Numbered from the stretch's first letter, positions 4,986-58,560 are shown. The stretch: 64,000 nucleotides of DNA from a bacterium (GCA_027592325.1 JAQCKO010000001.1:20247-84246), one strand, 5' to 3'. Notes: generated from the sequence alone by a model not told the origin. Translations and numbers: made by a program.

Positions 4986-5741
4986 TTATTCCGTCTCTTC
5001 TTCTGAATCTTCGTTTTCCTGACTCTCTAATACTTTCTCAGTCAGAGAAGCGTGAGAGAGTTGTCCTGCAATCCAATTAAAGTGATTGAGGATTGTCTCG
5101 GTTGCCTTTTCAACAGCAGCTTGTGCTGTAACGGTTCCATCAGTGGTAATGTTCATGATTACCTTATCGTAGTTGGTGATTTCTCCAACACGCGTATTCT
5201 CTACTTGAAGTCCTGCAGCAACGACCGGACTGAAAAGTGCATCAACAGCGATGAGTCCGATTTCAGTTGTTGGGACTGTGCGTTCTTCGGTTGGAAGATA
5301 CCCTCGCCCACGTTCGACAGTGATTTCCATTTCGAAATCCGTGTCCGTCGTCAGCGTTGCAAGAACAAGTTCTCCATTAACGATTTCTACATCTGCATTT
5401 TTTTCGAATCCTGATGCCATCACTTCACCTTTCTTTTTTTGTGAAAGCGTAAGAACAACAGGATCATCACTATGCACAATCATGCGTAGTTTCTTAAGGT
5501 TCAAGATAATGCTAAGTACATCTTCTTTTACCCCTTCAACACCCATAAATTCGTGCTGAGCACCTTTGATTTTTACCGCCGTTACCGCCGCTCCTTCAAG
5601 TGAAGAAAGCAAAACACGGCGCAGGGCGTTTCCGATTGTGGTTCCATAGCCATGATGAAGTGGCTCAATCGTGAGGATTGATTCGTTTTCGTGTTCACCA
5701 TCGGTGAAGACCATCTTTGAGGGAAGCAAAATATTCTCCAT
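4986..5741 (-). CDS. rpoA: DNA-directed RNA polymerase alpha subunit, N-terminal domain only (no alpha-CTD)
   Basis: 251 aa. A full alpha-NTD (dimerisation and beta/beta' contact region) ends ...ILNHFNWIAGQL, followed only by an acidic tail ESQENEDSEEETE. rplQ starts 2 nt later, so there is no room for a CTD. Confidence 0.88.
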   Translation of the reverse strand: MENILLPSKMVFTDGEHENESILTIEPLHHGYGTTIGNALRRVLLSSLEGAAVTAVKIKGAQHEFMGVEGVKEDVLSIILNLKKLRMIVHSDDPVVLTLSQKKKGEVMASGFEKNADVEIVNGELVLATLTTDTDFEMEITVERGRGYLPTEERTVPTTEIGLIAVDALFSPVVAAGLQVENTRVGEITNYDKVIMNITTDGTVTAQAAVEKATETILNHFNWIAGQLSHASLTEKVLESQENEDSEEETE

Positions 5742-6381: not shown

Positions 6382-6897
6382 TTATACACGTCGAGCGCGG
6401 CGTGGCCGGCACCCATTATGCGGCACTGGTGTGCGCTCTTTAATTCCTGTAATGCTAAATCCTTTTGCGTTTAGCGAGCGAATTGCAGCATCTTTACCGT
6501 TTCCAATTCCGGTTACGTAAACCATAAGTTCACGGACACCGTAGCGCTCAAGCGCATCTGCAATATCATTTACAACCACTCCGGCTGCATATGGTGTTGC
6601 TTTCTTTGGCCCTTTGAATCCACATTTTCCAGAGCTTGACCATGCAATAATATTTCCATGAGGGTCAGCGACAGAAATAATGGTGTTGTTAAGGCTTGCA
6701 AAAACATAGGCATTTCCTTTAGAAACGCTCTTCATGACACGTTTCTTTCCTTTTGCAGAACGAATATACACTTTCTGATTCGTCGCTTTTGCCTTTGATT
6801 CTGCCTTTTTCTCAGACTGCTTCGCGTCATCTGGCGATGTCACTTGAGTCTCATCGGTAGTAGCCTCTACTACCTGAGTTGTTTTCTCTTCACTCAT
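6382..6897 (-). CDS. rpsK: 30S ribosomal protein S11 with an ~40-aa Lys/Glu-rich N-terminal extension
   Basis: 171 aa. The core from ...KKRVMKSVSKGNAYVFASLNNTIISVADPHGN... is uS11. The N-terminal 40 aa are low-complexity. Confidence 0.9.
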   Translation of the reverse strand: MSEEKTTQVVEATTDETQVTSPDDAKQSEKKAESKAKATNQKVYIRSAKGKKRVMKSVSKGNAYVFASLNNTIISVADPHGNIIAWSSSGKCGFKGPKKATPYAAGVVVNDIADALERYGVRELMVYVTGIGNGKDAAIRSLNAKGFSITGIKERTPVPHNGCRPRRARRV

Positions 6898-7625: not shown

Positions 7626-7841
7626 CTAAAATCTGTAAGTGATGCGGCCTTTTGTGAGATCATAAGGACTAATCTCAACTTTGACGTCATCGCCAGGCAT
7701 AATACGAATTCGGAATTTTCGCAATTTTCCTGACAGATGAGCGATAATTTCTTGGCCTCCGTCAAGTACCACTCGGAACTTGCCGGCAGGAAGAGCTTCT
7801 TCAACTCTTCCTCTTGCCTCGATGAAATCTTTTTCTGCCAT
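7626..7841 (-). CDS. infA: Translation initiation factor IF-1
   Basis: Internal Met of the 96-aa track [74 protein letters not shown] (71 aa) is a full-length S1-fold IF-1. Confidence 0.85.
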
Positions 7842-7960
7842 AAGTGCGAGAAGTCTAACAAATTCAGGCGCTTCTGGCAAGAACAATTTGGATGAAATCC
7901 GCCGGAAGTGTACCAAAATGGGGAAAATAAGTCAAATTGCACTGTGTCTGGATTGTAATC

Positions 7961-7989
7961 TTGACGTTTGAGAAGAAAACCCGTATATT
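7961..7989 (+). promoter_or_regulatory. Near-consensus sigma70-type promoter (TTGACG-17 nt-TATATT) for the 8037 gene
   Basis: -35 TTGACG at 7961-7966, 17-nt spacer, -10 TATATT at 7984-7989. GAGG RBS 5 nt before the ATG at 8037. Confidence 0.5.
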
Positions 7990-8036
7990 TAATCGTCACA
8001 AAACGGTGGATACCCCACCCGGTGACCTGAGGAAAA

Positions 8037-8474
8037 ATGCCCGCTGAAGAATGCCTGAAGGCTACACGTGATCTTGCCAAGCAGATCAGGCGGGTCACTG
8101 GCCTAAAGTCCCAATTTGCGGAAACGGACACGGGAACCGTCATCGTCTTCACCCATACGGGTACGACCGGGCTCGATCTACAGTTGGAACCTCAGCATCA
8201 TGGTGACGATTCTACGAGGATGAGTATCATGATCCGCGTCACCTGCAACGGCGAGTTCATGCACGCATACGTGAGCGTCTCGCCGGAGGGAGATTTCACC
8301 TGCATCGGTGAGGGTGGATGCGGTCATTCAACGGACGATTTTCCGGATGAGTTGTCCGACATGTTCGATGATCAGCCACACGACGCAGACGGTGTGAGGG
8401 AGGAGATCGAGCGCTCCGTCGGGGTCTGGTTGGACTACGGCAACCAAACGCCGAGCAATCTCGCATACACCTAG
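8037..8474 (+). CDS. Hypothetical Cys-containing protein in the GC-rich islet
   Basis: 145 aa. Own promoter and RBS. Local GC ~55-58% against ~45% in flanks. No family recognisable by eye. A CxxxxC-like TCIGEGGCGHS segment is present. Confidence 0.5.
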   Translation: MPAEECLKATRDLAKQIRRVTGLKSQFAETDTGTVIVFTHTGTTGLDLQLEPQHHGDDSTRMSIMIRVTCNGEFMHAYVSVSPEGDFTCIGEGGCGHSTDDFPDELSDMFDDQPHDADGVREEIERSVGVWLDYGNQTPSNLAYT

Positions 8475-8494
8475 CCCGGCGCTGGGCTGCTAGA

Positions 8495-8532
8495 CGCGCT
8501 TCCGACACACGGTCGGAGGCGCGTTTTCTCTT
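8495..8532 (+). terminator. Rho-independent terminator after the 8037-8474 gene
   Basis: GCGCTTCCGAC-ACAC-GGTCGGAGGCGCG stem-loop followed by TTTTCTCTT. Confidence 0.55.
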
Positions 8533-8616
8533 GTATAAGCGAAAGCGCCCACATCTCTGCAGGCGCCACGAGCTATTCAACGAGTACGAACTTGAAGTCG
8601 TCATCTGGAACACGGG

Positions 8617-9123
8617 CTAGGGCGTCGAGAAAACAGCGAGAACAGTGCCCCGTTTGAGAGCCTCGACAGTAAGCGTCGAGCCCCTCGGTACACGGGCGAC
8701 GTTTTCGAAAACGCTGACGGCGCGAAGAACCATCGACGTCTTCGTACCCGCGTCATTAGGCATCTGGAGGGTGATGCGAACGCTGCCCACAACCACCAGG
8801 AGCACCTTATCCTTCGTTTTGTGGTAGTGATCTCCTGCCGGCATCCCAATACGCTTTCCGCGTAGCATCGCGATCTGATCTTGGATCCATCCACGCACCC
8901 CAGGTCGCCCCTCAAAGACGACATAGTAGACGACATGGATTGTCTCAACTGGCACTCCCATGATATCGGCAATCACGGAAAGATGAGTCTGCACCAGATA
9001 GCGACCTGGCTTCGATCCATCTGGTGGAATCTGAAAAGACATTTGCTGCATGACACGAACCTCCCCGCGAAAACCTAGCAAAACAAATTGTAAATGACAA
9101 ACGCTGGATCCTGCAGTCCTCAC
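8617..9123 (-). CDS. Hypothetical protein, possibly cupin-like (GC-rich islet); the true start may be Met25 at 9051
   Basis: 168 aa. G-x5-HYH-x3-D-x6-G (IGMPAGDHYHKTKDKVLLVVVG) approximates cupin motif 1. Convergent with the 8037 gene. GC-rich. Confidence 0.4.
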   Translation of the reverse strand: MRTAGSSVCHLQFVLLGFRGEVRVMQQMSFQIPPDGSKPGRYLVQTHLSVIADIMGVPVETIHVVYYVVFEGRPGVRGWIQDQIAMLRGKRIGMPAGDHYHKTKDKVLLVVVGSVRITLQMPNDAGTKTSMVLRAVSVFENVARVPRGSTLTVEALKRGTVLAVFSTP

Positions 9124-10893
9124 CTACCCTAAAATTGCCTTAATGCGCCGAACACCGGCTGATGACGCTTCCTCTTTTTTGATTTTAAATCCGCCGAGTT
9201 CGCTTGTGCGTTCAACGTGTGGGCCGCCGCAAATTTCAGACGAAAAGTCCCCGATGAAATAGACTTTTATCTTCCCGCCCATTTGCGCGTATTTATCTTC
9301 AAACAGTCCAATCGCTCCGCGTGCCTTTGCCTCTTCTACGGTAAGCAGCTCATGGTGAATTGGCAAATCACTGCCGATTTGCTCGTTCACAATGCGTTCT
9401 ACCTCTTCTATCTGTTCAGGCGTCATTTTTTCTCCATGCGAAAAATCAAATCGGAGCCGCTCACGAGTGATATTACTTCCGCGCTGCTCAACATGATCGC
9501 CAAGAACCGTTCGAAGCGCTTGATGCAATAAATGCGTCGCGGTATGCAGACGAGTCGATTCCGCAGAGTGATCAACAAGCCCTCCTGCAAACTTCTCGCC
9601 TGACCCATCGCGTGAGGTCTCTTGATGTTTTTTAAATTCTGCTTCAAATGCCGCATGGTCAACAGATTGACCATGCTCACGCGCAATCTCTTCGGTCAGC
9701 TCGAGCGGAAATCCAAAGGTTTGATACAAGTCAAATGCATCTGTTCCTGACAGCTGTCCCTTCTTTTCGTAAAGCTTCTCTACTTCACGAAGACCTTTGT
9801 TTAAACTTGTAGCAAATTTTTGTGCTTCTTTCTGAATTTCATCGGTAATCTCTCCCTGATTCGTCCGAAGTTCAGGGTAACCATCCTCAAGCGTGCCGAT
9901 GGTCATATGCACAATACTCGTCAAATCTTTATGCTCACCAGAAATTTTGAGCATTTGGCGTACGGCACGTCGAATCAGCCGGCGCAGAATGTAACCCTGA
10001 TCTTTATTTGATGGGCGCACGCCATCTGAAATCATCATAGTTGCTGCGCGAATATGGTCAGAAATAATGTACAGAGCACGCATGACTTCCACTGTTTCTT
10101 CTGGATTGCCGGAAATAGTTGAAATCTCGGTCAATATCGGCTGGAAGAGCTCGGTCTCATAGACGCTAGCTTTTCCTTGTAAAATAGCCGCCGTACGTTC
10201 AAGCCCCATTCCGGTATCAACATTTCTTTGGGCTAGCGGCGTGAGTACCCCGTCATCCCCCTTATAAAATTGCATAAACACATTATTCCAAATCTCCACC
10301 CAAAGATTGTTTTCTGGATCGAACTTCTCAGGCGCTTCTTCTTCCCCTGTCCAATAAAAAATTTCGGTATCCGGCCCCTGTGGTCCTGTGTGTTTTCCGC
10401 CTGCTGGCCACCAATTGTCATCTTTACCAAGCTTCGCGATGCGCGCATCTGGCACACCTAGCTGAATCCAAAGATTATACGCTTCTTCATCGAAAGGCGC
10501 ATCGTCGTCGCCCGCGAATACACTGACTGCTAAATGATTTGGTGAAATTGCTAGCCATTCCGTTGATGTCAAGAATTCATAACTCCAACGAATAGAATCT
10601 TCTTTAAAATAATCACCAAGTGACCAATTTCCTAGCATCTCAAAAAACGTAAGATGTGTTGCATCTCCTACCTCGTCAATATCACCCGTACGAATACATT
10701 TTTGACTATCCGTAAGCCGATTTCCTGATGGATGCGTTTCGCCCATCAAAAATGGCACCAATGGATGCATGCCCGCCGTTGTAAACAACACCGATGGATC
10801 ATTTTCAGGCACAACCGAAGCAGAAGGAATTTCTGCATGTCCTTTTGATACAAAGAATTCTATAAATTTTCGGCGGAGTGCACTTGCTGTCAT
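9124..10893 (-). CDS. alaS: Alanine--tRNA ligase, compact form lacking the C-terminal C-Ala/oligomerisation domain
   Basis: 589 aa. Class II catalytic core (FTTAGMHPLVPF..., GNWSLGDYFK), and editing-domain metal motifs HTATHLLH and CGGPHV near the C-terminus. Ends about 280 aa short of canonical ~870-aa AlaRS. Confidence 0.88.
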   Translation of the reverse strand: MTASALRRKFIEFFVSKGHAEIPSASVVPENDPSVLFTTAGMHPLVPFLMGETHPSGNRLTDSQKCIRTGDIDEVGDATHLTFFEMLGNWSLGDYFKEDSIRWSYEFLTSTEWLAISPNHLAVSVFAGDDDAPFDEEAYNLWIQLGVPDARIAKLGKDDNWWPAGGKHTGPQGPDTEIFYWTGEEEAPEKFDPENNLWVEIWNNVFMQFYKGDDGVLTPLAQRNVDTGMGLERTAAILQGKASVYETELFQPILTEISTISGNPEETVEVMRALYIISDHIRAATMMISDGVRPSNKDQGYILRRLIRRAVRQMLKISGEHKDLTSIVHMTIGTLEDGYPELRTNQGEITDEIQKEAQKFATSLNKGLREVEKLYEKKGQLSGTDAFDLYQTFGFPLELTEEIAREHGQSVDHAAFEAEFKKHQETSRDGSGEKFAGGLVDHSAESTRLHTATHLLHQALRTVLGDHVEQRGSNITRERLRFDFSHGEKMTPEQIEEVERIVNEQIGSDLPIHHELLTVEEAKARGAIGLFEDKYAQMGGKIKVYFIGDFSSEICGGPHVERTSELGGFKIKKEEASSAGVRRIKAILG

Positions 10894-32182: not shown

Positions 32183-32905
32183 TTAGAAAAATGTTCGATC
32201 ACTTGTATGGCGAATATGCTCAAATGCTTCTTCGGCCGTATCAACAATAGTATACAGCCCTATATCTTCTTTTGAAATGGTGTCGAATTCTTCATACAGT
32301 GTACTCCGAATGAATGCATCCAGCGGCCTCCAGAATGCTGTGCCAACTAATATCACAGGGACAGGCTCAGATTTCTTTGTCTGAATGAGCGTAAGAATTT
32401 CAAATAATTCATCCATTGTTCCAAAGCCACCCGGAAAATAGACGTATGCTTGCGCAGAAGCAGCCAGAATAACTTTTCGGGTGAAGAAATAATGAAATGC
32501 ATGCGATCCATTGACATATGGATTGATGCGTTGCTCCATGGGAAGTTGAATATTCAGTCCAATCGACGCACCACCAGCGTCGTGAGCGCCTTTATTCCCT
32601 GCTTCCATAATACCTGGCCCGCCTCCTGTCACAACAGTAAAATCGTGCTCTGCGAGCAAATTCCCTAGCTTCACGGCTTCTTGATACCAGTGACTCGTCG
32701 GCGCGAGTCGGGCAGATCCGAAAATTGTCACTTCTTTTGAAAGTGTTGAAAGAAATTGGAAACCTTCCACAAACTCCGACATGATCCGGAAAATTCGCCA
32801 GGTTATATCAGACATTTCATTCGGTACCTGATCATGCTCTTTACGATCAAGACAAGCACGTTCTTCTGACGTGAGAGGAATACGAGGACACGTTTTCATA
32901 TACAT
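32183..32905 (-). CDS. LOG-family protein (cytokinin riboside 5'-monophosphate phosphoribohydrolase / TIGR00730)
   Basis: 240 aa. TIFGSARL...VVTGGGPGIMEAGNKGA...PGGFGTMDELFE is the LOG signature. Confidence 0.8.
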   Translation of the reverse strand: MYMKTCPRIPLTSEERACLDRKEHDQVPNEMSDITWRIFRIMSEFVEGFQFLSTLSKEVTIFGSARLAPTSHWYQEAVKLGNLLAEHDFTVVTGGGPGIMEAGNKGAHDAGGASIGLNIQLPMEQRINPYVNGSHAFHYFFTRKVILAASAQAYVYFPGGFGTMDELFEILTLIQTKKSEPVPVILVGTAFWRPLDAFIRSTLYEEFDTISKEDIGLYTIVDTAEEAFEHIRHTSDRTFF

Positions 32906-33063
32906 ACATCATAGCATGCCGCTCCCGTAAACAATGAAGCGGTTCATACATATTTGTCTATATTGTTGTATCTGAAGCTATGATGGTGAAAACGGCTCAT
33001 GAACGTGTGCAAAGCCCGTGCTTGTCATTAACGCCCTGAACAGGATTCTGAATACACCCTCAG

Positions 33064-34059
33064 CTAAAATGGATGAAGCAAATTATGACGTCTTGACTGT
33101 TTTTCCGTTAATCGGCTTCGAAGCGCAGCACCAATCGCCGTCAAGTATAGAAGCACCTCATTTTGCTCGACGAATGGAATGGATAATCGTTCAACTACCG
33201 GAAATACATTTAATGAAAGAGATGTGAGCGTTGACAGTTGATCCGGACCTATCACTCCTGCATCGCCGGCCAGATACAGTCGAGGAATCTCGTACCCTAA
33301 CGAACGAAAATGCGTTACCACGCGCTGTATAGACGATTCGATCAGTTGCATTTCCACTGTATCAACGCGATTATCATGTTTGACGGCATTGTTTGCAGAA
33401 CGTATTGCACCTAGCGGTATAGAACGTGAGAAAAAGAGTCCACCAAAATAATCAAATAAACTTATTGTCGGCCAGTCACTATCTAGCTCAAGCAGCACTG
33501 CCAGTTCATTGTCTTTCAGAGCAACAATTTCACTACCAAAGTGTAAAATTGCACGATAATTGCTAAGCGCCTGCATTTCTATCACGGTCAAATCTACCTT
33601 TGGTACATGCAAAGCGCTCTGTATGTGGCCAGTATCTTCTCGTTCAGCCATGTACACGTCAAGGAGTAGGTAGTCATTCACACGTGCCGATTCTTCGATA
33701 GAGATGACGGCATCAGCGGTTTCTATAGGTGATCGACGCGCGACAGCCTGTAAAAGGTCGGCTTGAAACTGTACCTCAGACAGGCCTGATTTACACCAAA
33801 TACCCATGGTATACATACGGGAATTTGGCATCGATGCAATGGCGGAAATACGTCCGAGCGAACCTAGAAATGGCTCCAATGTTCTTAGAACTTCTTCTCC
33901 ATGTTGAATACGCCCGTCAACAATCATGCCTTCTGGAATAGGAATAGTCTGAAGCGCATGAATCGAACCTTTATTTGCAAGGACGGCGCATCGAACGCTT
34001 TGATCTGTAAATTGGATGCCAACAGTTTTTCCTCCCATATAGGGCATATTTAGCCCCAT
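33064..34059 (-). CDS. pilM: PilM-like type IV pilus assembly protein (actin-like ATPase fold), divergent
   Basis: 331 aa. Last gene of the pilus operon. N-terminal GIQFTD in place of the GIDIG phosphate-1 motif. Assignment rests partly on context. Confidence 0.5.
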   Translation of the reverse strand: MGLNMPYMGGKTVGIQFTDQSVRCAVLANKGSIHALQTIPIPEGMIVDGRIQHGEEVLRTLEPFLGSLGRISAIASMPNSRMYTMGIWCKSGLSEVQFQADLLQAVARRSPIETADAVISIEESARVNDYLLLDVYMAEREDTGHIQSALHVPKVDLTVIEMQALSNYRAILHFGSEIVALKDNELAVLLELDSDWPTISLFDYFGGLFFSRSIPLGAIRSANNAVKHDNRVDTVEMQLIESSIQRVVTHFRSLGYEIPRLYLAGDAGVIGPDQLSTLTSLSLNVFPVVERLSIPFVEQNEVLLYLTAIGAALRSRLTEKQSRRHNLLHPF

Positions 34060-34071
34060 TATACCATGAGG

Positions 34072-34572
34072 CTATCGCGTGAGAGAGATCGAAGAAGTAT
34101 TCTCAGATTCGCAGGCTTGAATAGTAATCGAGCCAGTCGTTGCCTTAGTGATGACGTATCCTGTTGTTCCTGCAGTCCAAGCAGTTGCACCTTGTGGACT
34201 AATTGGCATGGAACCCATGTATCCCTCCGTAACTAATCCACTCAAATCGGCACAGTGTGTATCACTCGCAACAGTTGCATCACATGTGTCGTCATCACAG
34301 CCGGTTGAATCCGTACCAATCATATATATTTGTGCGGCTGTCATATTATCTTTTATCTCTGTCAAATAATCGCCGCCATTATCTACCTGATCAATCTTAA
34401 TCGCATGAAGCAGCTCAGCGATATCAGAGAAGCGCCGAGCGTCACGTGCATCTTGAAATCGTGTACCTGGGTCAAGCGCCGCAAATACCACAGCCGCAAG
34501 GACGGCAAGAATAGAGATGACAATTAATAATTCAACGAGCGTGAATCCTTTTTGTGAAGAAAATCTTTTCAT
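34072..34572 (-). CDS. Type IV major pilin (prepilin N-terminal methylation motif)
   Basis: Start at MKRFSSQKG|FTLVELLIVISILAVLAAV. Cleavage after Gly, Phe+1, Glu+5. A C-terminal Cys pair (CDDDTC...C) for a disulfide loop. ~166 aa. Confidence 0.75.
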   Translation of the reverse strand: MKRFSSQKGFTLVELLIVISILAVLAAVVFAALDPGTRFQDARDARRFSDIAELLHAIKIDQVDNGGDYLTEIKDNMTAAQIYMIGTDSTGCDDDTCDATVASDTHCADLSGLVTEGYMGSMPISPQGATAWTAGTTGYVITKATTGSITIQACESENTSSISLTR

Positions 34573-34606
34573 AGATATGATTGGAAGTATTTTACCATAG
34601 GTGCGA

Positions 34607-35038
34607 TCAATCAATCTCACTCCAACTGGTGATATCTACCGACGAACCACTGACAGAAATTGCTGCAGATGCATTACGCACGTAGCCATTATTATCCGAT
34701 TCGACTGTAATTGTGCATGATGACGAGCATGGCGTTGCAGAGATAACAATCGTGCAATCAGCATTTCCCACACTTATGGCTCCGCCTGAATACGATGTGT
34801 CACGAGAAATACGTAACATTGCTTCATGAACACACGACTCTGCCGCTCCAATCGCATGGCCAGAAGCACGCGTCCCCTCCCCTAGCTCAATCGATCCAAT
34901 GGTCAAAAACACAAGACTTGATGTAACCACGAGTACAAGCGCTGTAAGTACCACAATACCTACCGTTGCCGCTGCGCCACGCGTATCAGACCTCAAGCGG
35001 GATACGAATAGCTGTTTGAAATTCTTCAACATAGTCAA
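34607..35038 (-). CDS. PilX-like pilus assembly protein (N-terminal PilX_N-type hydrophobic segment, no Glu+5)
   Basis: 143 aa. RG-AAATVGIVVLTALVLVVTSSL. Confidence 0.45.
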   Translation of the reverse strand: MTMLKNFKQLFVSRLRSDTRGAAATVGIVVLTALVLVVTSSLVFLTIGSIELGEGTRASGHAIGAAESCVHEAMLRISRDTSYSGGAISVGNADCTIVISATPCSSSCTITVESDNNGYVRNASAAISVSGSSVDITSWSEID

Positions 35039-35504
35039 AAAATGGTGAATTAGATGAGTTTATCGCTTCTAAAGTGTACTCGACCAAAACGATTCCTGCA
35101 TCATCAGCACTTGTAAGATTCGTGAAAACGAGATTCGTCACACGAACACGACCGGTTGTTAATTGTGTTGTTACGCCATTTATTCCTATTTGTAACGATC
35201 CATCATCTTCTGTCAGACTAAAGACCGTTGGATCTTCGCCGGAATCAACCATCGCGAACCGAAGCACTCCTGGATCAACGTCGAATGTTGAGCTTCCGAC
35301 CGTAATACTTGCTGCATGTCGGGCTGCATACGACAGTTTTGCCTGTATGATCGCGGCATTGTAGGCAACTTCAGCGAGCACCTCTGATTTTGCGCGATTT
35401 CGTGTCAGCGTTACAACATACTGCGTAGTAGCGATGAGGACAGAGCTCACAATCGCGACGTACAAAATCATCTCTACAAGGGTTGATCCACGCTTATTCA
35501 ACAT
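34986..35504 (-). CDS. Minor pilin / pseudopilin (prepilin-type)
   Basis: 172 aa. MLNKRG|STLVEMILYVAIV with Glu+5. Confidence 0.65.
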   Translation of the reverse strand: MLNKRGSTLVEMILYVAIVSSVLIATTQYVVTLTRNRAKSEVLAEVAYNAAIIQAKLSYAARHAASITVGSSTFDVDPGVLRFAMVDSGEDPTVFSLTEDDGSLQIGINGVTTQLTTGRVRVTNLVFTNLTSADDAGIVLVEYTLEAINSSNSPFFDYVEEFQTAIRIPLEV

Positions 35505-38319
35505 AGGAAATTGTCACATCTTCGAGCACCGGTGATGCCGATGTTGTTCCTGTCATATAGGCTTTCCACTGAAACCACTGCGTTCCACTTGTACCCGAAT
35601 GTGTCGCGAGCGAATCTCCACTTGTAGTGAATGTTGTTGCCGGGGTTCCATCTGACCCAACCCAAAGCGCATCGGCAAGCTCCGCCTCCGATGACGCTGT
35701 TCGAATACGAAATACAATATCGCCCGTCCCCGATTCCGTCCACTCAATCAATTGCCAGCTTGCAGAGGTTGATCCAGAATCATACGGTTGTGATGTGAAA
35801 TTGCCCTCATACGCATAGTCAGAAATGCTTCCTGGACCGAGTATCTGTAACTCAAGCGCATCATTCGCTGAGGCAACGTATGCATAGGTGCCGTCGTGGA
35901 AGACCCCTTGACCCCAATCATTCAAATCATACGTCACTTGCTGAGTCATAGAACCAGAAGAAACCGTCCAGCGTTGAAATTCATCATCTGTGTCCTCTGA
36001 TGCAATATAAATCGCCGCCCCACCACTTTCAACAAAGATATCCCAAATATCACCGGCAACATCGGCCGTTGTGAGCTCAGCAGGTGATCCGGGTGTTGAA
36101 ATGTCAAATTGATGAATTTCCGGATCAGCACTTAAAGTTCTTCCAACGTATAAGATCTCATTTGTGCTATCCACCTCAATTTCGAAGGCATCTGCAGCAC
36201 CAGTCAAATCTTGAGAAGAGCTTGTCAAAGAGGCCGGTGTTGACCAATCAAAAATCCATAACTCATTTGATGCGCCCGCACCATACATATAATCATCGTA
36301 AAATTTGATGCGTCGAATGTGCGTTCCGGTATTAACTGAATCCACAAATGAAGGGCTGGCGACACTCGATACATCGATAAGAAAAACTTCGTCCGCGGTC
36401 GATGCAAATCGTCCTAGCGTCACATAATTGCCTGATTTATCGAGTCCAATGCCATCTGAAGCCCCAGATGCGTCATAAAACCCCGCGCGCGTAGGAGATG
36501 ATTTCGTGGAAATGTCAATAATATCAAGCTCACGATTATTATGCGTTGTGGCTAAATAGGCGTAATTTCCATCAACCACCAAGTCATTCACATATGCACC
36601 AATTTCAAACCATCCCGTTAAAGAAGGTGTCGACGGAGTAGAAATATCGTAAATCAGAAACTCTGGCCCCGATGCGTCAGGATACGTTCCAATGTAAGCG
36701 TAATCGCCAGACACAACGATCGGACGTGCATTCGCTGTTCCAGAGATATTAGCCGATCCTATACTCGATAATACCGCCCATCCCCCTGTAGATGGCCCCA
36801 TTACCACAAGTTCACCGCTTCCATCTGAAGTGACATAAAAAATGTAACTTCCATAATCTGCAATATCGAGCGGCTGAGCGGCCAAATCGATGTTTTCATC
36901 TTCTGTGAGTCCATCAAGATCAATGATTTGCAAGTCTTCGGACGCATTTGTAGATGCAACAAATGCACGATCCGTATTCGGGTCAACAGAAAATGCCCTA
37001 TGTGTATTGCCTGTAATTAATGAGTCACCCACAGCAAACGATGATGCTGGATTGGTAATATCAATTTCGTAAAAACTTGCAATCGTCCCGCTTCCATCTC
37101 GCGAGACATAAAGAATCGTGCCGCTCACAGCAATGTGATAACTTGTTTGAGTTCCAACTAAATCAAGATCTGCAACCTCAGAATAATCAGATAAATCCAT
37201 CACCGCGAGCTCCTTTGATGTATTAGCCGTTGCAATATATGCATAGCTACTGTCAAGGGCGATGTCGCGCACACGGGCCGTTGCATCATAAGAACCGAGG
37301 AAGGACGGTGAGGCCGGGCTTGCAAGACTGTAAACAAATACTTCATCACCAGATGCATCGTTTGCTCTACCAACGACAAGTGTTGAATCAATAATCGCAA
37401 CGTCGTATGCATCCTCCGTCCCAGAAATATCGACGCTACCTACTTCTGTCATCGTGAGCAAATTTACAATTACAACCTCTTTTGCATCATCGCCGGTTAC
37501 CACATATCCATACTCTGTATAAATCGCAAGGTCATACGGCGTATACGAGCCAAGCTCAATTCCATCAATAAGGGTAGGTGCCACATTTTCAACGTTTGAC
37601 ACATCGTAACGATTTAATTCATCCCCAGTTGTTGCATCGAGCAGTACAAGGAGCTCATCCTGCGACTCCCATAGCAATAGCTCGATAGGAGCTGCACTCC
37701 CCGGGAGTGAGACAGTATACAATTCTTCAAGTGTAGACCAATCTGTTGAAACAGTCCGTAGGTCAATATCGCCGTCTCCTGATGCTGCCTGAGCCGTTGA
37801 CCCAAAAAAACTTCCATTATTAAATTCTGAGAGTAAATCTTGTGTCCACGTTTGTACTGCTGCAAAGTTGTACACGTAAAACACATGCGAGAGATTTACC
37901 AGTTTACTCGCCAATGTATACCAATTGATTGAAATTGTGATCTTTTTTGTTGCAGAATCTGCGACTCCACTTGCAGCAATATCCCCCGTAAGACTACCCG
38001 TTCGTGTGACATCTTCAACCAAAATACTGCGTGTATAGTTAGTAAGCACGCTTTCTGAACCAGATGCAAGTGCATAGCTTCCTAAAGCGGTATCTAAATG
38101 ATATGTTCCAGATGAAATGGTAGAAAAGTCTTGGTATGCAACAGAACGCACTCCCTCTATGCCTTCTTGAAGTAACCCAGAAGCAGCCACATAGTCAACC
38201 CCCTGTTTTCCTGATGCCGTAGCACGAAAAAGTGCACCAACCCCCGCTGATGCAAGCAAAGCGAAAATAGCGATGGCGAGTAGTATTTCGAATAATGCTA
38301 ACCCACGCTCGTCCTTCAT
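35494..38319 (-). CDS. Giant prepilin-like protein with a C-terminal beta-propeller (LVIVD-type repeats); putative pilus tip adhesin (PilY1-analogous)
   Basis: 941 aa. MKDERG|LALFEILLAIAIFALL (Gly, Glu+5), followed by many repeats of the form Y[AD][VI]A...D.YAY[IV]A...(S/T)...EL..(I/M)D, typical of beta-propeller blades. Confidence 0.65.
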   Translation of the reverse strand: MKDERGLALFEILLAIAIFALLASAGVGALFRATASGKQGVDYVAASGLLQEGIEGVRSVAYQDFSTISSGTYHLDTALGSYALASGSESVLTNYTRSILVEDVTRTGSLTGDIAASGVADSATKKITISINWYTLASKLVNLSHVFYVYNFAAVQTWTQDLLSEFNNGSFFGSTAQAASGDGDIDLRTVSTDWSTLEELYTVSLPGSAAPIELLLWESQDELLVLLDATTGDELNRYDVSNVENVAPTLIDGIELGSYTPYDLAIYTEYGYVVTGDDAKEVVIVNLLTMTEVGSVDISGTEDAYDVAIIDSTLVVGRANDASGDEVFVYSLASPASPSFLGSYDATARVRDIALDSSYAYIATANTSKELAVMDLSDYSEVADLDLVGTQTSYHIAVSGTILYVSRDGSGTIASFYEIDITNPASSFAVGDSLITGNTHRAFSVDPNTDRAFVASTNASEDLQIIDLDGLTEDENIDLAAQPLDIADYGSYIFYVTSDGSGELVVMGPSTGGWAVLSSIGSANISGTANARPIVVSGDYAYIGTYPDASGPEFLIYDISTPSTPSLTGWFEIGAYVNDLVVDGNYAYLATTHNNRELDIIDISTKSSPTRAGFYDASGASDGIGLDKSGNYVTLGRFASTADEVFLIDVSSVASPSFVDSVNTGTHIRRIKFYDDYMYGAGASNELWIFDWSTPASLTSSSQDLTGAADAFEIEVDSTNEILYVGRTLSADPEIHQFDISTPGSPAELTTADVAGDIWDIFVESGGAAIYIASEDTDDEFQRWTVSSGSMTQQVTYDLNDWGQGVFHDGTYAYVASANDALELQILGPGSISDYAYEGNFTSQPYDSGSTSASWQLIEWTESGTGDIVFRIRTASSEAELADALWVGSDGTPATTFTTSGDSLATHSGTSGTQWFQWKAYMTGTTSASPVLEDVTISYVE

Positions 38320-38768
38320 AATGTTGAGATGGTTCCGATGGCATTAATCGTCACCGCCACTGTTCGCGATGTATTCTCGTCTGTAATCGTCAGAGTTTGC
38401 GCCCCTGAAGCTGCATCGCCATTTCCGAAATCAAATCGTATGGTATTACCACCGCTATTTGAAATGGAAAGCTGGCCAGAAAGCGTATGTACTTCATCGT
38501 AATTTGTATCGCGTGATCCGTATGTTGCTCCTTTAAAAAGAGTATAGGATGTTGAATCGATCCGCACACTCCACATGTCATCTGATTCGCCATACATCGT
38601 CCTTAGCTGTGCTCTGCGTAATACTTCGATCAATCCATCCTCTGCTAGTTCAAGCTGATGGTTAGCGAATGCACGACCGGTGAGTGCCGTACTTATAACA
38701 GATAGCGTGGTAATGAGCGCGACCACGATAATGACCTCGACGAGGGTGAAGCCAAACTGTTTCGTCAT
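38316..38768 (-). CDS. Pseudopilin / minor pilin (GspH/FimT-like)
   Basis: 150 aa. MTKQFG|FTLVEVIIVVALI. Confidence 0.7.
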   Translation of the reverse strand: MTKQFGFTLVEVIIVVALITTLSVISTALTGRAFANHQLELAEDGLIEVLRRAQLRTMYGESDDMWSVRIDSTSYTLFKGATYGSRDTNYDEVHTLSGQLSISNSGGNTIRFDFGNGDAASGAQTLTITDENTSRTVAVTINAIGTISTL

Positions 38769-39859
38769 ATTGTGACACTGCCAGTGATTGAATAAATTGG
38801 CGTCAAAATAGAAAGTGCCAATAAGCCGACAAAAAGACCAAGCGCAATAAGGAGAACTGGTTCAATCATTGATGCAAGATTTTTCGATAAGACTTCTATA
38901 CGCTCCTCATAATAATCTGCCAAATAATTGAGTGTTGCTCCCAAATGCCCTGACCGCTCTCCGACTGCCGCCATACGCCTCAACATTTTCGGATACAATT
39001 TTGGGGCAATTTCCAAACTTTCCGACAGTGTCATGCCGGTTTTTACGCGTTCAAGTGCGCGCTTCGCCATCTGTTTATATGCGACATTCCCAAGCGCATC
39101 GCTCGTTACTTTAGTTGCCTCGACAATCGGCGTACCGCTCTCAAGTAGTGTTGAAAGGATTCGACAAAACCGTGCTCGCTGATAGTCGTTCACAAAGCTA
39201 TTGAGTCCTGGTATGTATAAATATGTTCTATCAATATACGGCCGTGCAAATGGCAGACGTGACAACATCACACTCCCAATCAAGACAGCAATCGTGAAAA
39301 CAGTAATAAGAAGGCCATGCCGATCAAAAAGGTTTGCCGTCCAGATAAGCGCACGTGTTGTAATTGGTAACTCAACATTAAGCGAAGTAAAAACATCGGT
39401 AATTTGTGGCAAAACAAAATTTGCTATTCCAAAAAACAAGGCAAGTGACGCAGTAAATACAAGTCCAGGGTAAAGCATAGACGATTGAACCTGTCGCTTA
39501 ATTTTCAAGTCACGCTCCATTTGAATAAATACACGCTCTAAATTCATTGCAAGGGTTCCAGACTGTTCTCCAATGATAATCGAGCTCACAATAAATGGCT
39601 TAAAAATACGTGGTTCAAGCTGTAATGCATCGCCTAGGCTCGCCCCTGCATGCACACGCTTTGATAGACGTTCTAAAACTGGTCGCAATGCACTCCGTTT
39701 GGGTGATTGATCAAAGAGAATATCAAGCGACTCCGGGAGCGTCAGTCCAGCAGAAAGCATAACGGACAAGTTTTTTAAAAACTGAACTAAGTCGACTCCT
39801 TTAACGCCTGTCGTTATTTGAAATGCGAGAATCTTTTTAAGCAGGGTTTTGTTCGCCAT
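38765..39859 (-). CDS. pilC: Type IV pilus platform protein PilC (GspF family)
   Basis: 364 aa. Two GspF repeats with 3 TM. 4-nt overlaps on both sides. Confidence 0.85.
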   Translation of the reverse strand: MANKTLLKKILAFQITTGVKGVDLVQFLKNLSVMLSAGLTLPESLDILFDQSPKRSALRPVLERLSKRVHAGASLGDALQLEPRIFKPFIVSSIIIGEQSGTLAMNLERVFIQMERDLKIKRQVQSSMLYPGLVFTASLALFFGIANFVLPQITDVFTSLNVELPITTRALIWTANLFDRHGLLITVFTIAVLIGSVMLSRLPFARPYIDRTYLYIPGLNSFVNDYQRARFCRILSTLLESGTPIVEATKVTSDALGNVAYKQMAKRALERVKTGMTLSESLEIAPKLYPKMLRRMAAVGERSGHLGATLNYLADYYEERIEVLSKNLASMIEPVLLIALGLFVGLLALSILTPIYSITGSVTI

Positions 39860-39860
39860 A

Positions 39861-41552
39861 CTACTTCGTTACGCGCAATACTTCTTCAAGTGCAGTCACA
39901 CCAGCAAGCGCCTGCTCGACGCCATGCTGAAGCATCGTCACCATTCCTTCCTGAATAGCCACCTCTTGTATTTCATCACTGTTTTTTTGCTGCATGATTG
40001 CAACGCGTACGGCATCAGTTACTTCAAGGATTTCAAAAATCCCAACGCGACCACGGAATCCTGTTTGACCACAAACTGGACACCCTTTTGCATGAAAAAG
40101 CCTTAATTCTGCGAACGGGCGACCAGCAAGCTGCTTTTCGATTGCCGCCTTCACCTCTGGACGTGATTCGATCAATTGCAACTCTTCAGCACTAGCTTGC
40201 TTACTGTACAAACATTTTCTACATAGCTGCCTCACAAGTCGCTGTGCAACGACACCAATCATTGTTGAGCTGATCAAAAACTCCTCTACCGACATATCGC
40301 GAAGTCTTGGAAAAGCGGTTGCCGCATTGTTTGTATGAAGCGTTGAAAGCACTAAATGGCCTGTCAGTGCTGCGTTAACGGCAATATCGGCTGTTTCTGA
40401 ATCACGAATTTCTCCGACCATAATAATATCGGGGTCTTGACGCACAATTGAACGTAACCCTTTTGCAAATGTCAGCTTTGTTTTTTCATTGACTTGAATT
40501 TGATTTACCCCATCAATATCGTACTCTACAGGATCTTCAATGGTCGAAATATTGACATTGCGTTTATTGAGCATTTTTACGCCAGCATACAATGTCGTCG
40601 TTTTACCACTCCCCGTCGGTCCGGTGACTAAAATCATTCCCCATGGTTTCTTAATTGCATCCGCGAACAAGTCAAGTTCCCGAGTGTGGAATCCCAAATC
40701 ACGTAAGCTAAATTGTCGTGAACGCTCAGAAAGCAGTCGCATCACGACTTTTTCTCCGTCAGTGACAGGGACAATTGAAACACGAATTTCAATATCTTCC
40801 TTTCGCTTTGATTCATACGATATCTTTCCGTCAAGGGCGGACTGATGTTCATCAGTTGGTAATCGAGATAACACTTTTATACGCGTCACCATATGGTCGT
40901 GCAGTTTTTTCGGCACGGTCACGACATCGTGCAATAATCCATCAACTCGAAAACGTACTAAGGTCTCTTCATCCTCTGGTTCAATATGTACGTCTGATGC
41001 TCTCGCTTGGTACGCACGTTCTATAAGTTCCTCAACCAACTGAATGACAGCCTGACCGGAAGCATCGATATCTTTTCCACCTGCACGCTCAATATAATCT
41101 GCAAGGACCGTCTCTGCATCCTTTTCAAAAAGGTGATAATGCGATGTTAAATCTCGCGGCGTAACAAATACGTAACGAATTTCATGCCGAGTAAATTTTT
41201 CAAGAAGACTTTTTGTCTCTAGATCGCCAGGATGTGAGGTTGCAACGCGTATAAATCCTTCATGCAATTGAAGCGGAAAGACATGATTCGCCCTTGCAAA
41301 ACTTTCAGGAATAAGCCGAAGAACGTTACGATCAACCTGAAAATCTGCAAGCTCTAAAAACGGTACACTTAACATATCGGCAATTAATTGTCCTATTTGA
41401 CGATCTTCAAGAGCATCTGATTCAACTAAAACAGTGTAAAGATCCTTTTGTTCTTTTTTTGCCGTTTCACTTGCAGCAGTGAAGGTCTCTTCCGTAACTG
41501 CTCCAGACGTTACAAGTGCTTTTTTGTATTGTTCCTCCGAAAGTAATGACAT
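39861..41552 (-). CDS. pilB: Type IV pilus assembly ATPase PilB (GspE family)
   Basis: 563 aa. Walker A LVTGPTGSGKTTT, Asp box, His box, and a tetracysteine motif CPVCGQTGFRGRVGIFE. Confidence 0.9.
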   Translation of the reverse strand: MSLLSEEQYKKALVTSGAVTEETFTAASETAKKEQKDLYTVLVESDALEDRQIGQLIADMLSVPFLELADFQVDRNVLRLIPESFARANHVFPLQLHEGFIRVATSHPGDLETKSLLEKFTRHEIRYVFVTPRDLTSHYHLFEKDAETVLADYIERAGGKDIDASGQAVIQLVEELIERAYQARASDVHIEPEDEETLVRFRVDGLLHDVVTVPKKLHDHMVTRIKVLSRLPTDEHQSALDGKISYESKRKEDIEIRVSIVPVTDGEKVVMRLLSERSRQFSLRDLGFHTRELDLFADAIKKPWGMILVTGPTGSGKTTTLYAGVKMLNKRNVNISTIEDPVEYDIDGVNQIQVNEKTKLTFAKGLRSIVRQDPDIIMVGEIRDSETADIAVNAALTGHLVLSTLHTNNAATAFPRLRDMSVEEFLISSTMIGVVAQRLVRQLCRKCLYSKQASAEELQLIESRPEVKAAIEKQLAGRPFAELRLFHAKGCPVCGQTGFRGRVGIFEILEVTDAVRVAIMQQKNSDEIQEVAIQEGMVTMLQHGVEQALAGVTALEEVLRVTK

Positions 41553-54616: not shown

Positions 54617-54686
54617 CAGAGCCGAAGCTGAGTGGTCAGCGCCGACATGGCAGTCGGAGGTCGCAGGTTCGAATCCTGCCGGCTCT
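54617..54686 (+). tRNA. tRNA-like gene with canonical acceptor, D and T arms (GGTTCGAATCC) but a 6-nt anticodon loop (ATGGCA); identity undetermined, possibly GGC-like
   Basis: AGAGCCG/CGGCTCT acceptor, GCTG-AGTGGT-CAGC D-arm, GCAGG-TTCGAAT-CCTGC T-arm. The only consistent anticodon stem (CCGAC/GTCGG) leaves a 6-nt loop. No encoded CCA. Confidence 0.55.
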
Positions 54687-54688
54687 AT

Positions 54689-54760
54689 TGCATCTGTAGC
54701 TCAACTTGCTAGAGCAGCGAACATGGTTCGAAGGTCAACGGTTCAAACCCGGTCAGATGC
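54689..54760 (+). tRNA. tRNA-like gene / possible tRNA pseudogene: D-loop lacks GG, and the anticodon arm is 2 nt short (CGAA-CATGG-TTCG)
   Basis: GCATCTG/CAGATGC acceptor, GCTC-AACTTGCTA-GAGC D-arm, AACGG-TTCAAAC-CCGGT T-arm (one mismatch). 2 nt after the previous tRNA. Confidence 0.4.
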
Positions 54761-54774
54761 ATTCTTCCGCGCAT

Positions 54775-57997: not shown

Positions 57998-58168
57998 ATT
58001 GGGCCATGCTAGTTGATTTTCGCTTGAAAGTAAAGGAAGTGAATAGCGAGTAGAAAGTAGGAGTGGAAAGTAGGTTTGAGCGTATCTCGAGCCAACAGCT
58101 TACAGCTACGTTATAACTTGCATCCATCAAATTTTTGTGATACCTTATTCGTCACTGAAGGAGGAACC

Positions 58169-58342
58169 ATGCCCGAAGATCCGAAGATGATTGGCCAGCA
58201 ACCATCACCGCCACCAACAGAACCCCCCACACCGGTCCGCTCATCGAGTGGACTGGAGTTGAGAACGGTGATGGTTCCAATGCCCCAACGCCCCCCCATG
58301 CTCGCCCTAGCCGAAGACGTTGTCGGCTGGCAGCGCAAGTGA
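58169..58342 (+). CDS. Possible small Pro-rich ORF with a strong RBS (GGAGG), in a 60% GC intergenic block
   Basis: MPEDPKMIGQQPSPPPTEPPTPVRSSSGLELRTVMVPMPQRPPMLALAEDVVGWQRK (57 aa). Other frames of the same GC-rich block are also open and Pro-rich, so coding status is uncertain. Confidence 0.25.
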   Translation: MPEDPKMIGQQPSPPPTEPPTPVRSSSGLELRTVMVPMPQRPPMLALAEDVVGWQRK

Positions 58343-58512
58343 TCACCCAACCACCCGCGCCGGTCAGAAGCGTGGAGCCCCCGCAGGACGGACCGTATTC
58401 GCTCCACAATTGGTTCGCACTCTTCAAGCCAAAAAAGCCCAAAACCTACACTCCCCCTCACCCCGCCGGCGACAAGAAGCGCTAGCGGGGTTTCTCTTTC
58501 GGTCGAAAAAAT

Positions 58513-58560
58513 GGTAACTCGGTTACCGAAATTTCGGTAACCGAGTTACCATTTTTTTTG
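58513..58560. terminator. Perfect 20-bp palindromic bidirectional terminator (AATGGTAACTCGGTTACCGAAATTTCGGTAACCGAGTTACCATTTTTTTT)
   Basis: A-run before, T8 after. Lies between the GC-rich block and murC. Confidence 0.7.

What the first reader, a model, noticed from the sequence alone, without database searches (positions are those of the whole stretch)
8037..9123. GC-rich (about 55-58%) two-gene islet inserted between infA and alaS where map/adk/secY would be expected
The flanks are ~42-47% GC; this 1.1 kb block is markedly richer. It holds two convergent unknown genes. One (8037-8474) has its own near-consensus promoter, RBS and terminator. The other (8617-9123) has a degenerate cupin motif 1. 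The conserved spc/alpha operon upstream of infA is absent here, suggesting a rearrangement or horizontal acquisition at this point.
Basis: seen in the sequence. Interest (0 to 1): 0.55.

Follow-up and report, generated by a model that had tools for sequence, protein, structure and literature searches.

The report
Small foreign two-gene insert beside infA
A 1.1-kb GC-rich stretch carrying two small protein genes with no known relatives was inserted, probably by horizontal transfer, into the short spacer between alaS and infA of an uncultured Patescibacteria (CPR) bacterium; this is a real but fairly ordinary example of a small foreign gene insert ("islet").

Summary
Positions 8005-9123 form the strongest GC peak in the window (0.565 per kb against 0.456, z=4.3). 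They hold two convergent ORFs, ORF1 at 8037-8474 (+) and ORF2 at 8617-9051 (-).

The extra GC lies almost entirely at third codon positions of these two frames. GC3 is 0.685 and 0.607, against 0.398±0.040 for host genes, and no size-matched host chunk exceeds 0.586. So both ORFs are real coding sequences with foreign codon usage.

In the syntenic CPR relatives (PKD-murJ-alaS-infA-rpsM-rpsK), alaS and infA lie only 89-294 bp apart. No relative encodes anything like ORF1 or ORF2. Both proteins are orphans: a 5.8-billion-protein search for each, plus an exhaustive HMMER search for ORF2, returned only self hits.

ORF2 has a degenerate cupin motif 1 and two sub-threshold cupin-profile hits. ORF1 is an acidic protein of unknown fold.

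The alaS-infA junction is ancestral in this clade, and in other lineages the spot holds unrelated accessory genes. I found no integrase, flanking repeats or donor.

Verdict: a lineage-specific horizontally acquired islet of unknown function and modest interest.

The parts
8005..9123 (.). Inserted GC-rich islet. The compositional core is 8005-8912. The insertion must lie between the alaS stop (9124) and the conserved infA promoter P1 (7935).
   Evidence: GC change-point model. Relatives have only 89-294 bp between alaS and infA.
8037..8474 (+). ORF1: a 145-aa acidic orphan protein (pI 4.4; 26 D+E against 10 K+R). NCBI annotates only an 81-aa version that starts at M65.
   Evidence: GC by codon position 0.575/0.432/0.685; codon-usage z=-3.3. 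No family, PDB or homologue hit. AF2 pLDDT 45: N-terminal helix, about 6 strands, C-terminal helix.
7961..7989 (+). Promoter-like site for ORF1 (TTGACG-17-TATATT). It lies in the low-GC, native-looking spacer, back to back with infA P1.
   Evidence: This is a consensus match only: 4 sites were found in the region against 1.5±1.2 expected.
8029..8032 (+). GAGG ribosome-binding site, 4 nt before the ORF1 ATG
   Evidence: Read from the sequence.
8492..8536 (+). Intrinsic-terminator-like hairpin after ORF1 (15 bp, 9 G-C pairs, then TTTTCTCTTG)
8535..8567 (-). Hairpin after ORF2 (10-bp stem GGCGCCUGCA/UGUGGGCGCU, then UUCGCUUAU); a weaker terminator candidate
   Evidence: MFE and centroid structures.
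8617..9051 (-). ORF2: a 144-aa basic orphan protein (pI 10.1) with a degenerate cupin motif 1 (G69..H75-x-H77..D81..G89) and a P122-x-G124 remnant of motif 2. It probably reads on from alaS transcription.
   Evidence: GC by codon position 0.634/0.407/0.607. Codons 51-145 have codon-usage z=-3.8, while codons 1-50 look host-like at z=+0.3. Pfam FdtA E=0.02 and PHROG 7851 E=0.005 over residues 71-122. Only self hits.
9060..9066 (-). GGGGAGG ribosome-binding site, 8 nt before the ORF2 ATG
   Evidence: Read from the sequence.
7852..7935 (-). Native tandem infA promoters: P1 TTGACT-17-TACACT (7935-7907) and P2 TTGCCA-17-TAGACT (7880-7852). They mark the retained ancestral spacer.
   Evidence: The same P1/P2 layout occurs in the spacers of L003, L057 and L073.
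7626..7844 (-). infA, the left flanking core gene, with host-like GC3 of 0.30-0.40
   Evidence: Pfam eIF-1a E=1e-23; GC3 profile.
9124..10893 (-). alaS, the right flanking core gene (589-aa short form). Its C-terminus is intact (..RRIKAILG*), as in relatives.
   Evidence: Pfam tRNA-synt_2c E=1e-139; alaS tails of relatives.

Best explanation
This is a lineage-specific insertion of about 1.1 kb of foreign DNA. It lies in the alaS-infA spacer of an uncultured Patescibacteria (CPR) bacterium, just after the alaS stop codon and upstream of the conserved infA promoters. It carries two genuine but orphan protein-coding genes in convergent orientation.

Shown: the composition is foreign, both frames are coding, the block is absent from relatives, and the same arrangement was assembled independently.

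Inferred: the donor was an unsampled organism or mobile element of roughly 55-60% GC. Insertion occurred by illegitimate recombination at a boundary between transcription units, where extra DNA does little harm. ORF2 is co-transcribed with alaS, since it has a strong RBS, lies 72 nt downstream, and no clear terminator intervenes. ORF1 is expressed from its own promoter and stopped by a strong hairpin.

Function (inferred, weak): ORF2 is most likely a small single-domain beta-barrel of the cupin/RmlC-like type that binds a small molecule such as a sugar nucleotide. It lacks the motif 2 histidine usually needed for metal binding. ORF1 is a small acidic alpha+beta protein that may act as a binding partner or inhibitor. 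Nothing ties the two genes into one system.
For: Composition:
- The block is the top GC peak of the window, z=4.3.
- The excess GC is at third codon positions of the two frames: GC3 0.685 and 0.607 against 0.398±0.040 in 45 host genes. Both values exceed the maximum of 0.586 among 161 size-matched host chunks. GC1 and GC2 are normal.
- Codon-usage z-scores are -3.3 and -2.5.
- GC3 of the flanking infA (0.30-0.40) is host-like.

Coding:
- In the shuffle test, ORF length and periodicity matched the observation together in 0 of 2000 shuffles.

Synteny:
- The alaS-infA gaps are 181, 133, 197, 89 and 294 bp in L003, L057, L073, L040 and L009, against 1279 bp here.
- The PKD-murJ-alaS-infA-rpsM-rpsK order is conserved.
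- The infA P1/P2 promoter layout is retained at 7852-7935.
- No ORF1 or ORF2 homologue is present in 160 alaS loci from relatives.

Orphan status:
- Searches (5.8 billion proteins; full HMMER on 1.84 billion representatives, ORF2) gave only self hits or spurious repeat-protein hits.

Assembly:
- Logan, ENA and NCBI assemblies of one sample span the islet at 100% identity.
- A contig from a second sample links alaS, ORF2 and part of ORF1.

Cupin hint:
-, plus the motif definition in PMC3765361.
Against: - No donor was found in phage, plasmid or viral collections.
- There is no integrase, tRNA, target-site duplication or terminal repeat, so the insertion mechanism is unknown.
- The nearest relatives are only about 50-63% identical in AlaRS. 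The insertion is therefore poorly dated and could be shared by unsampled closer relatives.
- ORF2's first ~50 codons look host-like, so the right boundary is uncertain and ORF2 could be a chimera.
- The function calls are weak. Both cupin-profile hits are below threshold, PDB sequence searches were empty, and the AF2 models scored pLDDT 40.6 and 45.0 with no significant fold matches.
- In the second sample the contigs break at 7847 and 8182, so the left junction is confirmed from one sample only.
Confidence: 0.75

Rival explanations
1. The genes are old, fast-evolving residents that were never transferred. Their odd composition would then reflect local mutation or selection bias rather than foreign origin.
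For: No donor was found. The alaS-infA gap also holds lineage-specific orphans in other CPR lineages, for example L013 and L004. ORF2's 5' third is host-like.
Against: The GC3 excess of 5-7 host standard deviations is confined to 0.9 kb, and infA next to it has normal GC3. Gap genes in relatives are not compositionally deviant (L013 0.543 against 0.511, L004 0.529 against 0.525). The closest syntenic relatives have empty spacers.
Confidence: 0.1
2. The block is the decaying remnant of a larger foreign insertion or mobile element. The two ORFs would be leftovers with no current function.
For: The block is very small, has no mobility genes, and its genes are orphans. ORF2 has a degenerate motif 1 and only a vestige of motif 2. 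ORF2 may be a chimera of host-like 5' and foreign 3' parts.
Against: Both ORFs are intact and fill 78% of the block. Each has an RBS and its own hairpin, and codon periodicity is preserved. ORF2 has the size of a complete single-domain cupin.
Confidence: 0.1
3. The block is an assembly chimera: a fragment from another organism joined into this contig by mistake.
For: The source is a metagenome-assembled genome. In a second sample the contigs end at 7847 and 8182, at the left edge of the block.
Against: Three assemblies (ENA, Logan, NCBI) span both junctions identically. The second sample independently joins alaS to ORF2 and ORF1 at 100% identity. That assembly is visibly low-coverage, with a run of N inside alaS. 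A chimera would need two false joins 1.1 kb apart, and no repeat exists at the junctions.
Confidence: 0.03
4. The region is a structured non-coding RNA or another non-coding element, and the ORFs are artefacts of high GC.
For: GC-rich patches in lower-GC genomes are often RNA genes. Several overlapping long ORFs occur in other frames.
Against: No Rfam hit even at E<=1, other than a hairpin-level match. The two named frames show strong GC3-over-GC2 periodicity, and the alternative frames show the off-frame pattern (GC2 0.65). The shuffle test also argues against it.
Confidence: 0.02

Closest known systems
Genomic islets (small horizontally acquired insertions carrying ORFan genes at operon boundaries)
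   Same: Atypical base composition and codon usage, absence from syntenic relatives, position between two conserved core genes at a terminator/promoter boundary, and genes with no known relatives.
   Different: It is much smaller than classical genomic islands. It has no integrase, tRNA target or flanking direct repeats, and no identifiable donor. The host is a reduced-genome CPR bacterium.
RmlC-like cupins of the FdtA/WxcM C-terminal type (Pfam PF05523; dTDP-sugar 3,4-ketoisomerases)
   Same: ORF2 is about 140 aa and predicted to be strand-rich. It has G-x5-H-x-H followed by a hydrophobic strand ending in G. The weak profile match aligns H75 and H77 with profile positions 49 and 51. From memory, these correspond to the catalytic histidine pair of FdtA (Davis, Thoden and Holden 2007, cited in PMC3765361); I did not verify this here.
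   Different: The score is below the curated threshold (15.1 against 23 bits). There is no PDB or homologue hit. The protein is basic (pI 10.1). No dTDP-sugar pathway genes (RmlA/RmlB, aminotransferase, acyltransferase) lie next to it.
Variable accessory-gene slots between conserved core genes
   Same: In other CPR lineages the same alaS-infA gap holds unrelated accessory genes: an HD-domain protein plus an ECF-type sigma factor (L037), a PaaX-like regulator (L016), two DUF2268 proteins (L021), and orphans (L013, L004).
   Different: Those lineages are distant, and their gap genes are not compositionally foreign. Repeated insertion at a true hotspot, as opposed to independent neutral insertions, has not been shown.

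Membership tests
Cupin superfamily | Motif 1: G(X)5HXH(X)3,4E(X)6G (PMC3765361) | tested here: inconclusive
   ORF2 has G69-x5-H75-x-H77-x3-D81-x7-G89. The G-x5-HxH core is present, but E is replaced by D and the last spacing is 7 rather than 6 (sequence; definition).
Cupin superfamily | Motif 2: G(X)5PXG(X)2H(X)3N, 15-50 residues after motif 1 | tested here: not met
   Only P122-R123-G124 is present, at a suitable distance (26 residues after G89). The G, H and N positions are E116, L127 and A131.
Cupin superfamily | Double-stranded beta-helix (small barrel) fold | tested here: inconclusive
   The single-sequence AF2 model is strand-rich but has pLDDT 40.6 and pTM 0.32. The Foldseek search of PDB gave no significant hit and no cupin.
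FdtA / WxcM C-terminal family (PF05523) | Profile-HMM score at or above Pfam's gathering threshold | tested here: not met
   15.1 bits (E=0.02) against a cut-off of 23, over residues 71-113. Supporting but also weak: PHROG 7851 'cysteine dioxygenase' (another cupin) E=0.005 over residues 74-122. NCBIfam gave no hit.
FdtA / WxcM C-terminal family (PF05523) | Genomic context of dTDP-deoxysugar biosynthesis genes | tested here: not met
   The neighbours are alaS, murJ, infA and ribosomal protein genes. The nearest glycosyltransferase and flippase cluster is about 4.5 kb away, beyond rpsI, and contains no RmlA/RmlB or aminotransferase.
Classical genomic island / integrative element | Atypical composition and absence from related genomes | tested here: met
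Classical genomic island / integrative element | Integrase or transposase, a tRNA or other att site, and flanking direct repeats | tested here: not met
   There are only two small ORFs with no recombinase domain and no tRNA nearby. Only chance-level 10-12-nt repeats flank the block.
Toxin-antitoxin or anti-phage defence module | Match to known defence or TA protein families; co-oriented two-gene operon | tested here: not met
   PADLOC and Pfam gave no hit. The genes are convergent, each with its own hairpin. The acidic/basic pairing (pI 4.4 and 10.1) is only suggestive.

The most novel reading that the evidence does not exclude
The acidic ORF1 and basic ORF2 could form a previously undescribed two-protein module, for example an effector with its inhibitor or immunity protein, or a small defence or counter-defence pair. 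It would have been captured from a phage or a neighbouring organism. ORF2 might also found a new, very divergent cupin-like family. More broadly, the alaS-infA gap may be a recurrent slot for accessory genes across Patescibacteria.
Probability: 0.08. Interest if true: 0.5.

Novelty: new member of a known kind. Interest (0 to 1): 0.22.

Why it matters
CPR/Patescibacteria genomes are small and streamlined, so clear cases of recent foreign DNA next to core translation genes help show how these organisms gain genes. This case is clean: the boundaries are sharp, the core flanks are conserved, and syntenic relatives have an empty site. It also corrects a tempting misreading, because the absence of secY-adk-map upstream of infA is an old clade-wide arrangement and not a local rearrangement. 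Beyond that, the finding is an ordinary islet of orphan genes of unknown function.

Tried and rejected
- **RNA gene hypothesis.** Rfam at gathering thresholds and at E<=1 gave nothing relevant.
- **Family assignment.** Pfam, NCBIfam, PHROGs and PADLOC gave nothing for ORF1 and only sub-threshold cupin hints for ORF2. The Polysacc_synt_C hit (E=0.0018) falls on the hydrophobic LLVVVG stretch, and I rejected it as spurious.
- **Homologue searches.** Searches returned self hits only. In the exhaustive HMMER search for ORF2, the three non-self hits were repeat proteins matching 'PPSGTEPG' or 'VRGWIGD' motifs, so I rejected them.
- **PDB sequence search.** Nothing.
- **Structure prediction.** Single-sequence AF2 gave pLDDT 40.6 (ORF2) and 45.0 (ORF1). 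The Foldseek searches of PDB were non-significant. p32/Mam33-type acidic proteins among the ORF1 hits are noted only as a weak hint.
- **Donor search.** Viral contigs, phage records and plasmid records gave no match.
- **Closer relatives to define an empty site.** The metagenome and genome scans with AlaRS found nothing above 63% identity.
- **Strain variation for dN/dS.** The other assemblies are 99.9-100% identical and show no differences within the islet.
- **Contig break as evidence of presence/absence polymorphism.** I rejected this as weak because that assembly is low-coverage, with scaffold Ns.
- **Flanking repeats as insertion scars.** Chance-level only.
- **Read-through of the alaS TAG into the in-frame ORF 8617-9123.** I rejected this because relatives' AlaRS ends at the same place and the downstream sequence is compositionally foreign.
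- **Literature search for the sample accessions.** No papers.

Full report
**Observation**

The window averages 45.6% GC. The 1-kb stretch starting at 8001 has the highest GC in the window (0.565, z=4.3), and the stated interval 8037-9123 is 0.557. A two-boundary likelihood model puts the GC-rich block at 8005-8912, with 0.576 inside and 0.457 outside.

Two convergent ORFs fill the block. ORF1 is at 8037-8474 on the + strand and encodes 145 aa. ORF2 is on the - strand and ends at 8617. Its most plausible start is the ATG at 9051, giving 144 aa, with GGGGAGG 8 nt upstream.

ORF1 has three expression signals:
- a promoter-like site, TTGACG-17-TATATT, at 7961-7989;
- a GAGG ribosome-binding site at 8029-8032;
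- a 15-bp hairpin at 8492-8526 followed by a T-rich tail.

ORF2 is followed on its own strand by a 10-bp hairpin at 8544-8567 and then UUCGCUU.

**Are the ORFs real genes?**

Yes, with good support. The excess GC is concentrated at third codon positions of exactly these two frames. By codon position, GC is 0.575/0.432/0.685 for ORF1 and 0.634/0.407/0.607 for ORF2. For 45 confident genes in the window the values are 0.563/0.388/0.398, with GC3 sd 0.040. The alternative overlapping ORFs show the off-frame pattern instead, with GC2 near 0.65.

No 145-codon chunk of host genes reaches these GC3 values (maximum 0.586 in 161 chunks). Synonymous codon usage is an outlier for both ORFs, at z=-3.3 and z=-2.5.

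In 2000 shuffles of the block, a second non-overlapping ORF of at least 145 aa occurred with P=0.0015. The observed periodicity occurred with P=0.0005. Both occurred together zero times. No Rfam family matches the region, even at E<=1.

**Is it an insertion?**

The flanking genes on the minus strand are murJ, alaS (589 aa), then the islet, then infA, rpmJ, rpsM, rpsK, rpsD, rpoA, rplQ, rplM and rpsI.

A scan of 185,579 species genomes with AlaRS found relatives that are at best 63% identical. The ones sharing the neighbourhood are Patescibacteria/CPR MAGs such as Uhrbacteria. Fifteen of these loci contain both alaS and infA.

In L003, L057 and L073 the full order PKD-murJ-alaS-infA-rpsM-rpsK is conserved. 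The alaS-infA gaps are:

| Locus | Gap (bp) |
|---|---|
| L003 | 181 |
| L057 | 133 |
| L073 | 197 |
| L040 | 89 |
| L009 | 294 |
| this window | 1279 |

The short spacers of relatives share a tandem promoter layout ahead of infA: TTGACA-17-TACAAT, then TTGCxA-17-TAGAAT. The window retains both promoters at 7935-7907 and 7880-7852. AlaRS ends at the same residues as in relatives. So about 1.1 kb was added between the alaS stop codon and the native infA promoter region.

GC3 of infA (0.30-0.40) is host-like, and the last ~90 codons of alaS are only mildly raised (0.47-0.53). Within ORF2, GC3 climbs from about 0.47 in the first 30 codons to 0.70-0.73 in the 3' half. The right edge of the foreign DNA may therefore lie inside ORF2, near 8912.

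**The 'missing secY/adk/map' claim**

The window contains no secY, adk or map. The same is true of relatives: alaS, not map, precedes infA across this group of CPR lineages. The separation of the infA-rpoA block from the spc operon is therefore an old, clade-wide arrangement and says nothing about the islet.

In more distant lineages the alaS-infA gap holds other genes:
- a conserved 400-685-aa protein in L020, L054, L075, L058 and L031;
- an HD-domain protein plus an ECF-type sigma factor in L037;
- a PaaX-like regulator in L016;
- two DUF2268 proteins in L021;
- orphans in L013 and L004.

None of these resembles ORF1 or ORF2. The spot tolerates insertions, as expected for a terminator/promoter boundary.

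**Assembly reliability**

The ENA scaffold (52 kb), a Logan contig (53 kb) and the NCBI contig (107.5 kb) all span the islet at 100% identity.

In a second sample, a 3.8-kb contig joins alaS, ORF2 and the 3' part of ORF1 at 100% identity. However, it ends at 8182, and the neighbouring contig starts at 7847. The same start is seen in NCBI MAG GCA_027621985.1, a strain 99.9% identical to the window. That assembly is low-coverage, with scaffold Ns inside alaS, and no repeat lies at the junction. I therefore treat the break as uninformative. A chimera is very unlikely.

**What do the proteins do?**

Both are orphans. The word-indexed search of 5.8 billion proteins returned only the query's own records. 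The exhaustive HMMER search of 1.84 billion representatives with ORF2 returned itself plus three spurious repeat proteins. Viral, phage and plasmid collections had nothing.

*ORF2* (pI 10.1) contains G69-x5-H75-x-H77-x3-D81-x7-G89. This is a two-deviation version of cupin motif 1. A P-x-G remnant of motif 2 follows 26 residues later, but it lacks the histidine and asparagine (motif definitions from PMC3765361).

Two independent cupin-type profiles hit the same residues below threshold: Pfam FdtA at E=0.02 (15.1 bits against a cut-off of 23) and PHROG 7851 at E=0.005. PDB sequence search, AF2 (pLDDT 40.6) and Foldseek gave no support.

I judge a cupin-like barrel likely (about 60%) but unproven. 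Membership of the FdtA family is not established, and no deoxysugar pathway genes accompany the gene.

*ORF1* (pI 4.4) has no hit of any kind. Its low-confidence model (pLDDT 45) shows a helix, about six strands and a second helix.

**Mechanism of acquisition**

This is unknown. There is no recombinase, tRNA or meaningful flanking repeat. The donor is inferred to have about 55-60% GC, from GC3 and from the general relation between GC3 and genomic GC (established knowledge, not tested here). High-GC CPR relatives do exist: L057 is 60.5% GC.

**Verdict**

This is a real, compositionally foreign, lineage-specific two-gene islet at an ancestral alaS-infA junction. The horizontal-acquisition reading is supported, and the rearrangement reading is not. 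It is a new instance of a well-known kind of feature, its function is unknown, and its interest is modest.

Noticed in passing
window 7852-8019 (minus strand); L003, L057 and L073 alaS-infA spacers: The spacers upstream of infA share tandem promoter-like sites (TTGACA-17-TACAAT, then TTGCxA-17-TAGAAT). They also share a DnaA-box-like TATCCAC motif (ATATCCACA, CTATCCACA, TTATCCACG; GTATCCACC in the window, inside the small hairpin at 8005-8019). This could be a conserved regulatory site.
   Followed up: partly
window 58150-58560: The second-highest GC peak (about 0.60) lies in the gap between the divergent secA and murC genes. It holds a strong RBS, a 57-aa proline-rich ORF that overlaps (GTGA) a 48-aa Pro/Lys-rich ORF, and then a perfect ~22-bp palindromic hairpin flanked by A6 and T8. 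GC is flat across codon positions and there is no Rfam hit, so this is not the same phenomenon as the islet.
   Followed up: partly
window 7847 and 8182; L002, L167, L168: In a second sample, and in the 99.9%-identical NCBI MAG GCA_027621985.1, contigs end exactly at 7847 and 8182. That leaves 334 bp at the islet's left edge unbridged. The likely cause is low coverage, but strain heterogeneity at this junction is not excluded.
   Followed up: partly
window 8617-9123 (minus strand): The ORF containing ORF2 is in the same reading frame as alaS and begins immediately after the alaS TAG stop codon. I judged this a coincidence (a 1 in 3 chance). AlaRS in relatives ends at the same residues.
   Followed up: partly
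window 49664-51685 (minus strand): A 673-aa SecD-like protein carries a PpiC-type rotamase (PPIase) domain inserted between the SecD N-terminal P1 part and the P1 head (Pfam).
   Followed up: no
window 54618-54761: Rfam finds two adjacent tRNAs (52.8 and 42.9 bits). ARAGORN reports only the first, with an undetermined anticodon.
   Followed up: no
window 4986-5741 and 6382-6897 (minus strand): rpoA encodes only 251 aa, with Pfam hits to RNA_pol_L and RNA_pol_A_bac and no alpha C-terminal domain on record. rpsK encodes 171 aa, and its sequence begins with a long lysine- and glutamate-rich stretch that looks like an N-terminal extension.
   Followed up: no
L020 11838-13049, L054 12000-13436, L075 2301-3872, L058 12985-14277, L031 17737-19794: A conserved 400-685-aa protein sits immediately upstream of infA in several more distant CPR lineages. 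Pairwise E-values run from 1e-15 to 1e-44, and there is a weak match to the GlxA beta-barrel domain. Its function is unknown.
   Followed up: partly
loci L005-L082: The 589-aa short AlaRS, which lacks the C-terminal C-Ala domain, has its closest homologues (50-61% identity) in MAGs labelled as very different phyla: Lentisphaeria, Spirochaetes, Clostridia and DPANN archaea. This could reflect wide sharing of the short form or mislabelled bins.
   Followed up: no
window 32183-41552 (minus strand): A type IV pilus-like cluster: T2SSE ATPase, T2SSF platform protein, several N_methyl prepilin-like proteins and a 941-aa LVIVD-repeat protein.
   Followed up: no
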